A stretch of 64,000 bases of DNA from Escherichia coli (GTDB lineage Bacteria; Pseudomonadota; Gammaproteobacteria; Enterobacterales; Enterobacteriaceae), in the NCBI RefSeq assembly GCF_003991155.1, contig NZ_CP031293.1. One strand, 5' to 3'. Each line of letters starts with the position of its first letter. Position 1 is the first letter of the stretch. Position numbers: made by a program. Positions 23,501 through 26,084 of this stretch are shown in pieces.

Positions 23501-26084
23501 GACTCCACAAAACGCCTTTGTAGTAATACCTGACTGCAATATCTGGTCGATCTCGTCGCAGTCACCTACCCGATACGCCTTTGAGGCTGTTTACCAGACT
23601 GGATATCGCCAGTTTGGGAGGATAGTTAATTAACAAATGGACGTGATCTGGTTCGCCATCCATTTCAACCAGTTCAGCTTCAAAATCAGCACATACATTT
23701 GAAAAGTAAGTGCGTAGTTTTTCTGTCGCGTCATGGTCAAAAATCTGGCGTCGGTATTTGGGACAAAGACCAGGTGAACATGCATCAGGAAAACACAATG
23801 CCTTCCACGCCGGATATCGGTTTCTTTTTTCACAGACCAAAATATAATTTGACCTGTGAAACGACTACAGGCATTTAAATTCCAGTTAAGACCCGGTGGT
23901 CAACAGGAGCATGAAATGAGGCGCTTCGCAGGCGCATGTCGTTTCGTTTTCAATCGTGCTCTGGCGCTTCAGAATGAGAATCATGAGGCCGGTAATAAAT
24001 ACATCCCTTACGGGAAAATGGCTTCCTGGCTGGTTGAGTGGAAAAACGCCACTGGAACGCAATGGCTTAAAGATTCTCCCTCACAGCCATTGCAACAGTC
24101 ACTGAAAGACCTTGAGCGGGCTTACAAAAACTTCTTCCAGAAGCGGGCTGCTTTTCCCCGATTCAAAAAGCGGTGACAGAATGATGCATTCCGCTATCCG
24201 CAGGGCGTTAAGCCCGCTCAGGAAAACAGCCGTATTTTTCTGCCAAAACTTGGCTGGATGCGCTACCGGAATAGCCGTCAGGTCACGGGTGTTGTGAAAA
24301 ATATCACGGTCAGCCAGTCCTGTGGTAAGTGGCACATCAGTATTCAGACAGAAAGTGAAGCATCAACTCCGGTTCACCCTTCAGCATCAATGATCGGGCT
24401 GGATGCTGGCGTGGGTAAACTCGCCACGCTGTCAGATGGCACAGTCTTTGAGCCTGTAAACAGTTTTCAGAAAAACCAGAAGACGCTGGCGAGACTTCAG
24501 TGACAGTTAAGCCGCAAGGTCAAATTCAGCAATAACTGGCAGAAGCAGAAACGCAAAATACAGCGACTGCATTCCCGTATCGCAAATATCCGCAGGGACT
24601 ACCTTCACAAAGTCACAACGACCGTCAGCAAAAACCACGCAATGATAGTCATTGAGGATTTGAAGGTCAGCAACATGTCAAAGTCAGCAGCGGGTACGGT
24701 CAGCCAGCCGGGGCGCAATGTCCGGGCAAAATCAGGTTTAAACCGTTCGATACTGAATCAGGGCTGGTATGAAATGCGCCGCCAGCTTGAGTACAAGCAG
24801 CTCTGGCGTGGCGGTCAGGTGCTTGCTGTTCCGCCAGCGTACACAAGCCAGCGTTGCGCGTGCTGTGGTCATACAGCGAAAGAAAATCGCCTGTCACAAA
24901 GTAAATTCAGATTCCAGGTATGTGGATATACAGCGAACGCCGATGTAAACGGCGCTCGTAACATTTTAGCGGCGGGGCACGCCGTTCTTGCCTGTGGAGA
25001 GATGGTGCAGTCAGGCCGCCCGTTGAAGCAGGAACCCACCGAAATGATTCAGGCGACAGCCTGAACGTAGCAGGGATCCTCGTCCTTCAGGGCGTGGAGG
25101 ATGTCAAGCTGATTCATCTATGTCGAGACGAGCAAGGAAATTACGAATTCCTTCGCGTGACAAAAATTGCGCAACTTTTTCCCGCTCACTGTGAGTCATG
25201 TTGTCTATTGCGCTGATGATTTGCCGATAAGCAGGAGTGCGAATCCCCGGTGCGTATTCGGCAAGGGGTTCTTCGGCTTCCAGAAGCATCGGCGTGTTAT
25301 GGAAGGCTGGCGTGTTCTGAATAAACTCGCAAACTTGCGTATCGACCAGAATAAGTCTGGCACGACCGCCTTTCACGCCGGGAAATTTTTCCGTTTTCCA
25401 GCCTTTTTCTCTGATCCAACGGTTAACAGTTTGTTTAGCCACACCGAGGCATTCAGCCAGTTCTTCGGTGGTCATTTTATTGCGTAATCTTTTCATATTA
25501 TTTGCTATCGCGAATCCCTAAGCGTTGTAATAATCCGATAATCCCTTCCCGCAGAAGCAAGGATGTAAACTGTTTTTGTTCAACTGGCGTCATCTCTTTC
25601 GCCAGTGTCACCAGCAACACTTCAAGCGGCGCATCACCAGACAGGGCAGGCGTTTCTCCCTGACTTTCCGGACGTTCAGCATTGCGAATATATTCACGAA
25701 CCTGTTCATTGACGTGAACCAGTCGGGCTTTGCCACCCTGGACGCCTGGTTTTGGTGACGTTGTCCAGCCTTCCTTGCGTACCCATTTATTAATGGTCTG
25801 GCGGCTATAGCCGGTCAGTCTGGCAAGTTCATCTGGCGTCATCCTCTCCTTGAACATAACAATTCCCTGAATGTATGTGGGTCTATTAGTAGTTCATTTT
25901 ATAACACCACTTTACAGGAAACCGTGACATGAATAACTACTGAATGCGAGCGGTTTTCCAAAATTGTTCATTTGCCTGATTTTTCAGCGATTGAAACTAC
26001 ACGTTGCAATTTGCCGTTGACACATTCGGGCGGAATTCATATGATGCCGCCCGTCAACTCGACAAGCTTTACGTGACGGGGCTA

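What the first reader, a model, noticed from the sequence alone, without database searches (positions are those of the whole stretch)
24850..25110. Possible omega-RNA (right-end RNA) region at the tnpB 3' end
In IS200/IS605 elements the guide RNA for TnpB is transcribed from the 3' end of tnpB through the right end, with the guide drawn from flanking DNA. Here the tnpB 3' region and right-end hairpin look intact even though the ORF carries stops, so a structured RNA could still be made. The guide would derive from the 3' end of yfeD.
Basis: inference. Interest (0 to 1): 0.35.

Follow-up and report, generated by a model that had tools for sequence, protein, structure and literature searches.

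The report
IS609 guide-RNA (omega RNA) module, orphaned
The flagged stretch is the well-preserved guide-RNA template at the right end of an E. coli IS609 insertion sequence whose own nuclease gene is dead, which is an ordinary feature of a known kind of mobile element.

Summary
Confirmed, and ordinary. The window is E. coli. A 1747-bp IS609 (23361-25107) sits between gltX and yfeD; K-12 has the empty site. Its tnpB (23856-25064) has two in-frame TGA stops and has lost a zinc-finger Cys, and its tnpA is a remnant.

The last 150 nt of the element (24958-25107) still encode an intact TnpB omega-RNA scaffold. A covariance model built only from 28 non-E. coli relatives hits exactly there, on the + strand only, at 153.8 bits (E 4e-49). 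The K-12 copy with intact insQ scores 155.8. Across 81 family members, 94% of cells pair and 29 of 45 pairs show compensatory changes.

The scaffold ends at the invariant GGAGGATGTCAA| terminus, after which flanks are unrelated. The TAM is TTTAY.

Rfam gives only sub-threshold hits, all to TnpB-associated families (RAGATH-18, HgcC, sot0042). Expression is untested. No + strand promoter was found, and the nonsense mutations may cause polarity. A strain with an identical locus carries an intact insQ elsewhere, so use in trans is possible.

Verdict: new member of a known kind, low interest.

The parts
23356..23360 (+). Target/TAM motif TTTAT immediately 5' of the left end. It lies in the T-tract after the gltX terminator hairpin.
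   Evidence: K-12 empty site reads ...TTTATTTAT|GCTGATTC. In relatives the base run immediately 5' of the left end is TTTAT or TTTAC.
23361..25107 (+). IS609 insertion sequence (IS200/IS605 family), 1747 bp, with no target duplication.
   Evidence: Boundaries come from comparison with the K-12 gltX-yfeD empty site. About 97% identical to the annotated K-12 IS609.
23377..23396 (+). Left-end subterminal hairpin CCCCGTCC-TTCA-GGGCGGGG.
   Evidence: Read directly from the sequence. Weak partial hit of model R1 through its hairpin positions (13.1 bits).
23424..23848 (-). tnpA remnant (pseudogene).
   Evidence: PGAP annotation of the identical locus: frameshifted, internal stop, missing C-terminus.
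23856..25064 (+). tnpB/insQ pseudogene. In-frame TGA at 24174-24176 and 24501-24503; Cys->Phe at 24913.
   Evidence: Translation. Pfam HTH_OrfB_IS605, OrfB_IS605 and Cas12f1-like_TNB on the fragments. Three-way comparison of copies.
24958..25107 (+). Omega-RNA scaffold. It covers the last 107 nt of the tnpB ORF, stop codon included, plus 43 nt of non-coding right end.
   Evidence: Model R1, built without any E. coli sequence: 153.8 bits, E 4e-49, model positions 1-151 of 151, + strand only. Covariation.
24961..24966 (+). 5' strand of the long-range closing helix. It pairs with 25099-25104 (GGAUGU), just upstream of the guide, and is the counterpart of the ISDra2 pseudoknot.
   Evidence: 94.6-97.4% of cells paired. 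Changes are mostly one-sided, because the 3' strand is the invariant terminus. ISDra2 pseudoknot geometry is from PMC10097598.
24969..24985 (+). Hairpin P1 (GCGGCG-GGGCA-CGCCGU), inside the coding region.
   Evidence: 4 of 6 pairs have compensatory changes, in up to 38 of 81 sequences. The encoded residues change in mirrored pairs: AAGHAV, ARGHRV, ERGYRL.
24991..25032 (+). P2 (24991-24995 with 25028-25032) enclosing P3 (24999-25006 with 25015-25021). Core motif CCUGUGGAG...GAAGCAGGAA.
   Evidence: Covariation. Sub-threshold Rfam RAGATH-18 match at 24991-25034, 25.4 bits against a gathering score of 44.9. Some relatives carry a variable-length insertion in the P3 loop.
25044..25068 (+). Hairpin P4 (25044-25045 with 25067-25068; 25048-25054 with 25059-25065; loop GACA). 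It contains the tnpB stop codon, 25062-25064.
   Evidence: All 10 pairs show compensatory changes in the 81-sequence alignment.
25077..25098 (+). Right-end hairpin with a UUCA tetraloop (UUUA in most relatives). One U.U mismatch at 25080/25095.
   Evidence: 7 of 9 pairs have compensatory changes. Comparable to ISDra2 stem 4 with its UUUA tetraloop at -20 to -17.
25104..25107 (+). Right-end terminal TCAA, the end of the invariant GGAGGATGTCAA. On the - strand it supplies the TGA stop codon of yfeD.
   Evidence: The terminus is invariant across the relatives whose right end lies within the fetched sequence, apart from four single-base variants, and flanks after it are unrelated. The yfeD CDS ends at 25104.
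25108..25123 (+). Predicted guide, GCUGAUUCAUCUAUGU. Taken as 16 nt by analogy with ISDra2; it could extend to about 25127. Antisense to the last codons of yfeD.
   Evidence: First bases outside the element. No other match in the window with 2 or fewer mismatches. A vacant allele in strain TUM1223 has TTTAT followed by 19 of 20 matching bases.
25104..25496 (-). yfeD, the host gene convergent with tnpB. The predicted guide is complementary to its 3' end.
   Evidence: ORF list and PGAP annotation.

Best explanation
The interval holds the omega-RNA (right-end RNA) module of an IS609 copy inserted between gltX and yfeD.

Shown:
- A 150-nt scaffold (24958-25107) overlaps the tnpB 3' end and runs to the element's last base.
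- It has the family's conserved fold: a closing helix next to the guide, P1, the P2/P3 core, P4 and the right-end hairpin.
- It is essentially as well preserved as in copies with an intact tnpB.
- The cis tnpB is dead, and tnpA is a remnant.

Inferred from ISDra2 and Geobacillus TnpB:
- Transcription in the tnpB direction across the right end would give an RNA whose 3' 16-20 nt (from 25108, antisense to the yfeD 3' end) is the guide.
- Loaded on a TnpB/InsQ protein, the RNA would direct RuvC cleavage of DNA carrying TTTAY followed by GCTGATTCATCTATGT. That is the vacant gltX|yfeD site, not the occupied one.
- Here the protein could only come in trans. A genome with a 100% identical locus has a full-length insQ at ydcL/ydcO.

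My estimate is about 0.9 that this is a true, structurally intact omega-RNA template. I put it at about 0.3-0.35 that a functional RNP with this guide forms in this strain. The likeliest state is a recently orphaned module with no present benefit, because no intact IS609 tnpA was seen to create vacant sites.
For: - Identity and boundaries of IS609.
- Pseudogene state.
- tnpB domains, and homology of InsQ to ISDra2 TnpB (E 1.9e-54).
- 80 related loci.
- Invariant terminus followed by unrelated flanks.
- Covariation in the hand-checked alignment: 94.2% paired, 21 pairs and 103 cells with double-sided change, against 6-12 pairs and 11-23 cells in slid controls, and 0 of 500 shuffles as high.
- Independent covariance model hit at 153.8 bits, E 4e-49, + strand only.
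- Window score within 2 bits of the K-12 copy.
- 81-sequence structural alignment: 29 of 45 pairs compensatory, 421 cells against 49-107 in controls.
- Stem P1 forces mirrored amino-acid replacements.
- TAM TTTAY.
- Intact insQ in trans in strain 2016C-3878.
- The O157-like lineage has the same insertion with intact tnpB.
- Architecture parallels ISDra2 (pseudoknot beside the guide, UUUA tetraloop).
- The weak Rfam hits are all to TnpB-associated RNA families.
Against: - There is no expression evidence of any kind.
- The consensus scan finds no + strand promoter-like site in 23300-25600.
- If the RNA is processed from tnpB mRNA (PMC10278001), the two early nonsense codons leave about 900 nt untranslated. 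That could cause Rho-dependent polarity and reduce 3' RNA. This is inference.
- Rfam models do not reach their gathering scores.
- The single-sequence fold is only modestly better than shuffles (z = -2.03).
- The closing helix has almost no double-sided covariation.
- The scaffold has three non-canonical pairs.
- tnpA was a pseudogene in every E. coli IS609 copy whose tnpA annotation I retrieved: four, at two sites. Vacant sites for homing may therefore rarely arise.
- No published activity for E. coli InsQ was found.
Confidence: 0.85

Rival explanations
1. Silent fossil. The sequence still looks like an omega-RNA template only because inactivation was recent. In this strain no stable RNA is made from it and it does nothing. 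This is compatible with the identity claim and differs only on present activity.
For: - No + strand promoter-like site.
- Two nonsense codons and a lost zinc-finger Cys in cis.
- tnpA is decayed.
- The element is only about 2-3% diverged from intact copies, so the scaffold may simply not have had time to decay.
- The absence of window-specific changes in the scaffold is statistically weak: 0 observed against about 3 expected.
Against: - Window-lineage-specific substitutions number 22 in tnpB upstream of the scaffold and 0 in the 150-nt scaffold.
- An intact, 99% identical InsQ is encoded in a genome with the identical locus.
- The consensus promoter scan is insensitive.
Confidence: 0.55
2. The conserved pairing is a DNA signal rather than an RNA one. 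On this view the hairpins serve TnpA recognition of the single-stranded right end during peel-and-paste transposition.
For: - IS200/IS605 ends carry subterminal hairpins bound by TnpA (established knowledge).
- The left end has a near-identical hairpin.
- The invariant GGAGGATGTCAA terminus fits a cleavage-site signal.
Against: - This explains only the right-end hairpin and the terminus.
- P1-P4 lie 40-140 nt inside the tnpB ORF and covary strongly, at the cost of amino-acid replacements.
- Many conserved G-U pairs would be C-A mismatches on the other strand. In DNA they would be G-T mismatches.
- The fold parallels the experimentally solved ISDra2 omega RNA.
Confidence: 0.05
3. Host-regulatory by-product. 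Read-through from the IS into yfeD acts mainly as an antisense RNA on the yfeD 3' end. Alternatively, the IS acts by replacing the yfeD stop codon and separating yfeD from the shared gltX/yfeD terminator.
For: - The guide region is antisense to the last yfeD codons, and the yfeD stop codon is now supplied by the right end.
- The terminator hairpin between gltX and yfeD now lies 1.75 kb beyond yfeD.
- The insertion is fixed in two clonal groups, 535 of 5426 genomes.
Against: - The same 4-nt overlap with the stop codon of a convergent gene occurs at ydcO and yedK. It looks like a consequence of target choice (TTAY is the complement of a TAA stop) rather than locus-specific regulation.
- The YfeD protein is unchanged in length.
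- There is no expression data.
Confidence: 0.05
4. No RNA element at all. The apparent structure comes from coding constraint, GC content or chance.
For: - The single-sequence fold has z of only -2.03.
- 107 of the 150 nt are coding (ORF end, stop codon included).
Against: - Slid-partner controls fall to 37-50% paired and 6-20 compensatory pairs, against 94% and 21-29 observed.
- Covariation continues through the 43 non-coding nt.
- The protein sequence changes to keep the stems.
- The model hit is strand-specific.
Confidence: 0.02

Closest known systems
ISDra2 TnpB omega RNA / reRNA (Deinococcus radiodurans; Karvelis 2021 PMC8612924; Nakagawa 2023 PMC10097598)
   Same: - The RNA overlaps the tnpB 3' end and ends at the transposon boundary, with the guide taken from flanking DNA.
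- The TAM equals the transposon's target motif.
- The bases just 5' of the guide pair with the 5' part of the scaffold. ISDra2 pairs -5..-3 with -103..-105. Here -9..-4 pair with -147..-142.
- The last hairpin has a UUUA/UUCA tetraloop about 20 nt from the guide.
- The proteins are homologous over their full length (E 1.9e-54).
   Different: - The scaffold is longer: about 147-150 nt against 116 nt resolved.
- The TAM is TTTAY rather than TTGAT.
- There is no detectable primary-sequence match.
- Expression, protein binding and cleavage are untested for IS609/InsQ.
- In this copy the cis protein gene is a pseudogene.
RAGATH-18-derived reRNA of IS607 TnpB (Rfam RF03064; Ren 2024 PMC11061315)
   Same: The P2/P3 core (CCUGUGGAG...GAUGAAGCAGGAA) matches the ends of the RAGATH-18 consensus almost base for base. 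That RNA is a proven TnpB guide scaffold.
   Different: - The score is 25.4 bits against a gathering score of 44.9.
- The internal hairpin is 17 nt rather than about 44 nt.
- Ren et al. report RAGATH-18 only with IS607-type (serine recombinase) elements, whereas this is an IS605-type element.
HgcC (RF00062) and sot0042 (RF02656), archaeal RNAs overlapping tnpB 3' ends
   Same: The 3' half aligns, including the terminal hairpin CCCCGCCCUUUAGGGCGGGGAGGAxGUCA. From my own knowledge, sotRNAs are sense-overlapping transcripts of IS1341-type tnpB genes.
   Different: All hits are sub-threshold: 16-34 bits against gathering scores of 50 and 88. The families are archaeal. The 5' halves do not align well.
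Orphan omega RNAs of tnpA/tnpB-less elements (PATEs) acting in trans (Meers 2023 preprint 10.1101/2023.03.14.532601)
   Same: A guide-RNA template without a functional cis nuclease, which would need a TnpB encoded elsewhere in the genome. An intact insQ exists at ydcL/ydcO in a strain with this locus.
   Different: Here the nuclease gene is still present as a full-length pseudogene and has not been deleted. Use in trans is not demonstrated.
TldR: domesticated, nuclease-dead TnpB with conserved guides (Wiegand 2023 preprint, PMC10705468)
   Same: A TnpB-family locus that has lost nuclease function yet keeps a guide-RNA scaffold.
   Different: According to that paper's abstract and my own knowledge, TldRs are expressed full-length proteins with RuvC inactivation, and their guides target promoters. 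Here the ORF is truncated by nonsense codons, the element ends are intact, and the guide is simply the insertion flank.

Membership tests
TnpB omega RNA (OMEGA / reRNA) of IS200/IS605 elements | Lies at the 3' end of a tnpB gene, overlaps the ORF end and runs to the right end of the element, on the tnpB strand. | tested here: met
   The scaffold, 24958-25107, overlaps the tnpB ORF end (25064) and stops at the element's last base, on the + strand only.
TnpB omega RNA (OMEGA / reRNA) of IS200/IS605 elements | The associated protein is a TnpB with a RuvC nuclease and a zinc-finger (TNB) domain. | tested here: met
   Pfam HTH_OrfB_IS605, OrfB_IS605 and Cas12f1-like_TNB. InsQ matches ISDra2 TnpB at E 1.9e-54. 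In this copy the gene is a pseudogene with 2 stops.
TnpB omega RNA (OMEGA / reRNA) of IS200/IS605 elements | Conserved secondary structure supported by covariation among relatives. | tested here: met
   21 of 50 pairs (A1) and 29 of 45 pairs (A3) have compensatory changes. 94.2% of cells are paired, against 37-50% in slid controls.
TnpB omega RNA (OMEGA / reRNA) of IS200/IS605 elements | The scaffold ends at the transposon boundary, and the sequence beyond it (the guide) differs at each insertion. | tested here: met
   GGAGGATGTCAA| ends the scaffold in the relatives whose right end lies within the fetched sequence (four single-base variants), and flanks after it are unrelated.
TnpB omega RNA (OMEGA / reRNA) of IS200/IS605 elements | Pseudoknot-like pairing between the bases just 5' of the guide and the 5' part of the scaffold. 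| tested here: inconclusive
   24961-24966 can pair with 25099-25104, with 95-97% of cells paired. Only 1 pair has a double-sided change, because the 3' strand is invariant.
TnpB omega RNA (OMEGA / reRNA) of IS200/IS605 elements | The TAM equals the target motif 5' of the left end, so the guide plus TAM describe the vacant donor site. | tested here: met
   Left-end flanks are TTTAT or TTTAC. Vacant alleles read TTTAT|GCTGATTC... in K-12 and TTTAT|TCTGATTCATCTATGTCGAG in TUM1223.
TnpB omega RNA (OMEGA / reRNA) of IS200/IS605 elements | The RNA is transcribed, processed and bound by TnpB. | not testable with these tools
   No RNA data are available. The promoter scan is negative on the + strand.
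TnpB omega RNA (OMEGA / reRNA) of IS200/IS605 elements | Guides TAM-dependent DNA cleavage. | not testable with these tools
   No report of InsQ/IS609 activity was found.
IS609 (IS200/IS605 family insertion sequence) | Sequence identity to the reference IS609, subterminal hairpins at both ends, and insertion 3' of a TTAY motif without target duplication. | tested here: met
   About 97% identical to the K-12 IS609 over the full length. Left-end and right-end hairpins are present. The empty-site comparison shows no duplication.
Rfam RAGATH-18 (RF03064) | Score at or above the gathering threshold of 44.9 bits. | tested here: not met
   25.4 bits, E 0.077, at 24991-25034.
Rfam HgcC (RF00062) / sot0042 (RF02656) | Score at or above the gathering thresholds of 50 and 88 bits. 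| tested here: not met
   Window: 20.1 and 16.3 bits. Best relatives: 32-34 bits for HgcC.
TldR-type domesticated TnpB | A full-length, expressed, RuvC-inactive protein with a guide conserved across strains and directed at a host promoter. | tested here: not met
   The ORF is cut by two nonsense codons. The RuvC D/E/D context is kept in the conceptual translation. The guide is just the insertion flank.

The most novel reading that the evidence does not exclude
The orphaned scaffold may be kept by selection rather than by lack of time. Loaded in trans by the intact InsQ from the ydcL/ydcO IS609 copy, it would police the gltX|yfeD site by cutting vacant alleles that arise by excision or arrive by recombination. 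In that way it would maintain a TnpA-less, TnpB-less element. Alternatively, its read-through RNA could modulate yfeD.

One hint is that the window lineage has 22 private substitutions in tnpB upstream of the scaffold and none in the 150-nt scaffold. Another is that near-cognate vacant alleles with the TAM exist in the population.
Probability: 0.1. Interest if true: 0.45.

Novelty: new member of a known kind. Interest (0 to 1): 0.2.

Why it matters
Mostly this is annotation. It shows that E. coli IS609 copies, including K-12 insQ, carry a canonical, strongly covarying TnpB guide-RNA scaffold. Rfam does not detect it at threshold, and the RefSeq annotations retrieved here for four IS609 loci (K-12 among them) list no RNA feature there.

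The work gives exact coordinates, a secondary-structure model and the predicted TAM (TTTAY) and guide. Any E. coli IS609 locus can now be read as "TAM + guide = vacant site".

It also gives a defined natural case of a guide-RNA template that has outlived its cis nuclease while an intact paralogue sits elsewhere in the genome. That makes a simple system for testing trans-loading of omega RNAs in a model organism. It does not change what is known about how TnpB systems work.

Tried and rejected
- **Rfam.** A scan of 23200-25600 at E<=10 gave only sub-threshold hits. A scan of 17 relatives at E<=0.01 gave only sub-threshold HgcC. An earlier attempt exceeded the size limit. Rfam therefore neither confirms nor refutes the reading.
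- **Single-sequence folding.** z = -2.03, which is not decisive. Its minimum-free-energy structure pairs the guide with the terminus, and the family does not support that.
- **RNAalifold on the MAFFT alignment.** It missed hairpin P4 because of indel misregistration. I added P4 by hand and checked it by pair counts and by model-based realignment.
- **Upstream hairpin 24938-24954.** It shows only G-U wobble changes and no double-sided covariation, so I do not include it in the RNA.
- **Promoter scan.** Nothing on the + strand. A terminator-like hairpin at 25155-25172 is noted but is probably chance.
- **Substitution-distribution test for selection on the orphan scaffold.** 0 observed against about 3 expected, too weak to claim.
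- **Literature searches.** Searches for IS609, insQ or ydcM with RNA terms found no description of this RNA. One search call failed on syntax.
- **Off-target search for the guide in the window.** Only a chance-level match with 3 mismatches.
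Full report
**Locus**

The window is Escherichia coli. gltX (+, 21891-23306) and yfeD/yfeC (-, 25104-25857) are convergent. In K-12 they are separated by 51 bp.

Aligning the K-12 empty site with the window shows a 1747-bp insertion at 23361-25107. The sequence reads ...TTTATTTAT|CCGGTGCGCC...GGAGGATGTCAA|GCTGATTC..., with no target duplication.

The insert is IS609. It is about 97% identical over its whole length to the annotated K-12 IS609, which carries insQ at ydcL/ydcO. PGAP annotation of a 100% identical locus (strain 2016C-3878) calls a tnpA remnant and an "RNA-guided endonuclease InsQ/TnpB family protein" pseudogene with internal stops.

**Observation check**

tnpB (23856-25064) translates without frameshift but has TGA at codons 107 and 216, at 24174-24176 and 24501-24503. 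Comparison with two intact copies shows these are G->T and C->T changes private to this lineage. A Cys->Phe change in the zinc finger at 24913 is also private. The three ORF fragments still match HTH_OrfB_IS605, OrfB_IS605 and Cas12f1-like_TNB.

The right-end hairpin (25077-25098) is present. It has one U.U mismatch at 25080/25095 where K-12 has A-U. The same T is present in the O157-like copy at this site, whose tnpB is intact.

**Is there a conserved RNA?**

I fetched 80 loci encoding relatives of InsQ, 94-58% identical, from Enterobacterales, Burkholderiales and others.

In almost every locus whose right end lies within the fetched sequence, the right end finishes with GGAGGATGTCAA. Four loci have single-base variants. 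The sequence after it is unrelated from locus to locus. This is the signature of a scaffold followed by a locus-specific guide.

A 32-sequence alignment (A1) and RNAalifold gave most helices. I added hairpin P4 by hand.

| Measure | A1, 50 pairs | A1, slid partners | A3, 81 sequences, 45 pairs | A3, slid partners |
|---|---|---|---|---|
| Cells paired | 94.2% | 37-47% | 94.2% | 41-50% |
| Pairs with changes on both sides | 21 | 6-12 | 29 | 14-20 |
| Cells with changes on both sides | 103 | 11-23 | 421 | 49-107 |

No shuffle out of 500 reached the observed values in A1. A3 was aligned to the model, so it leans somewhat towards the model's structure.

I then built a covariance model from 28 relatives, excluding the window, K-12 and the two closest loci (A2 and R1). 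Searched over the whole 64-kb window on both strands, it gives one full-length hit at 24958-25107 on the + strand, 153.8 bits, E 4e-49. It also gives a weak hairpin-only hit at the left end.

The K-12 copy with intact insQ scores 155.8 bits, so the window copy is not degraded.

Stem P1 lies in the coding region. Its covariation is bought with mirrored amino-acid replacements: AAGHAV, ARGHRV, ERGYRL, RAGHAQ. This argues that the RNA, not the protein, is the constrained object.

Many conserved G-U pairs, together with the strand-specific model hit, place the structure on the tnpB sense strand.

**Rfam**

Rfam alone would not have settled the question. The window gives only sub-threshold hits:

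- RAGATH-18: 25.4 bits against a gathering score of 44.9.
- HgcC: 20.1 bits against 50.
- sot0042: 16.3 bits against 88.

Relatives reach at most 34 bits for HgcC. All three families are nonetheless TnpB-associated RNAs. RAGATH-18 has since been shown to be the guide scaffold of IS607 TnpBs (PMC11061315).

**Architecture (window coordinates)**

- Closing helix: 24961-24966 with 25099-25104.
- P1: 24969-24974 with 24980-24985.
- P2: 24991-24995 with 25028-25032, enclosing P3.
- P3: 24999-25006 with 25015-25021. Some relatives carry a roughly 24-nt insertion in the P3 loop.
- A 2-bp junction: 25039-25040 with 25073-25074.
- P4: 25044-25054 with 25059-25068. It contains the tnpB stop codon.
- Right-end hairpin: 25077-25085 with 25090-25098, with a UUCA loop (UUUA in most relatives).
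- Terminus: GGAUGUCAA.

This parallels the solved ISDra2 omega RNA. There, bases -5 to -3 pair with -103 to -105 to form the pseudoknot beside the guide, and the last stem has a UUUA tetraloop at -20 to -17 (PMC10097598). InsQ is a full-length homologue of ISDra2 TnpB (E 1.9e-54).

The closing helix is the least secure element. Its 3' strand is invariant, so the changes are almost all one-sided.

**Guide, TAM and target**

The guide would begin at 25108 (GCUGAUUCAUCUAUGU...).

Left-end flanks across the family are TTTAT or TTTAC, so the TAM is TTTAY.

TAM plus guide therefore describes the vacant gltX|yfeD site. In the occupied site the protospacer is preceded by GTCAA, which avoids self-targeting.

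Vacant alleles exist in the population. K-12 has TTTAT followed by 3 mismatches in the first 16 nt. Strain TUM1223 has TTTAT followed by 19 of 20 matching bases.

No other plausible target lies in the window.

**State and context of this copy**

The RE-yfeD junction is present in 535 of 5426 complete E. coli genomes. The sampled junction hits fall into two haplotypes.

- The window type has the two nonsense codons. About 257 records are at least 99% identical to it.
- An O157-like type has tnpB intact at the same site.

The insertion is therefore older than the inactivation.

tnpA was a pseudogene in each of the four E. coli copies whose tnpA annotation I retrieved, at two sites.

Strain 2016C-3878, whose locus is identical to the window, encodes a 402-aa InsQ at ydcL/ydcO. 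It is 99% identical to the K-12 protein. A protein able to bind this scaffold could therefore be supplied in trans.

**Mechanism and its weak points**

By homology with characterised systems, an RNA reading through the right end would be bound by InsQ. It would then guide cleavage of the vacant donor site and bias retention of the element. The supporting literature is:

- Karvelis 2021 (PMC8612924).
- The Meers 2023 preprint.
- Nety 2023 (PMC10278001), on TnpB processing its own mRNA.

None of this is shown here. The consensus scan finds no + strand promoter. If the RNA derives from tnpB mRNA, the early nonsense codons may cause polarity. Without an active TnpA, vacant sites should be rare.

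I rate the identity of the module at about 0.85-0.9, and present activity at about one in three. The strongest rival is simply that it is a silent, recently orphaned fossil.

The window lineage has 22 private substitutions in tnpB upstream of the scaffold and none in the scaffold. About 3 would be expected, so this is only a weak hint of constraint.

The other rivals are a DNA-level TnpA signal, a yfeD regulatory by-product, and coding constraint or chance. The evidence above makes them unlikely.

**Verdict**

The finding is real and correctly interpreted. It is an ordinary instance of a known system: a TnpB omega-RNA template in IS609. Two modest additions are that the family scaffold is not captured by Rfam at threshold, and that this copy has outlived its own nuclease gene. 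It is a new member of a known kind, of low interest.

Noticed in passing
window 25104-25109; also L003 6905-6909 (K-12 ydcO) and L090 547-550 (yedK): The IS609 right end (…GTCAA) supplies the TGA stop codon of a convergent host gene at three independent E. coli insertion sites: yfeD, ydcO and yedK. At yfeD the insertion split GC|A TAA and regenerated GCT TGA, so the protein is unchanged. The target TTAT/TTAC is the complement of a TAA stop, so insertions at stop codons of convergent genes are both favoured and harmless. At a fourth site the annotated yfaV CDS lies on the same strand as tnpB and starts inside the right end.
   Followed up: partly
window 23320-23360: The insertion lies in the T-tract of the hairpin terminator shared by convergent gltX and yfeD (AAACGGCAGG...CCTGCCGTTTTTTATTTAT|). 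yfeD is now separated from that terminator by the whole IS, so its transcripts would read antisense into tnpB.
   Followed up: no
E. coli IS609 copies: window 23424-23848; L003 5219-5650; L084 666-1091; L088 13997-14503: tnpA is a pseudogene in all four copies whose tnpA annotation I retrieved, at two sites, yet insQ/tnpB is intact in three of them. IS609 is present in nearly every complete E. coli genome (5410 of 5426 have a match; median 2 places). This fits long-term persistence of TnpB without its transposase.
   Followed up: partly
window 23856-25107: Substitutions private to the window lineage number 22 in tnpB upstream of the scaffold and 0 in the 150-nt omega-RNA scaffold. Separately, a C->T change at 25020 in the O157-like copy turns the E. 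coli A.C mismatch in P3 into an A-U pair.
   Followed up: partly
window 24991-25034: The P2/P3 core of this IS605-type scaffold matches the RAGATH-18 consensus ends almost exactly (CCUGUGGAG...GAUGAAGCAGGAA), although it is sub-threshold. RAGATH-18 has been reported only with IS607-type TnpBs. The core motif may therefore be shared more widely among TnpB guide RNAs.
   Followed up: partly
window 23842-23848: Two lineage-specific changes (23842 G->A, 23846 C->A) create a perfect TATAAT just upstream of the tnpB GTG start at 23856. There is no good -35, and the promoter scan did not call it.
   Followed up: no
window 25155-25172: A terminator-like hairpin plus T-run lies on the + strand, about 50 nt beyond the right end and inside yfeD on its antisense strand. 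It could end a read-through omega-RNA precursor, but may well be chance.
   Followed up: no
L027 3847-3971: A second, weak full-length hit of the omega-RNA model (29.3 bits) lies about 1.1 kb downstream of the main element in a Hahellaceae MAG. It may be a degraded or solo scaffold.
   Followed up: no
L017, L070 (relatives): In these two loci the right end departs from the family consensus: the GGAGGATGTCAA terminus is absent. These may be truncated or rearranged copies.
   Followed up: no
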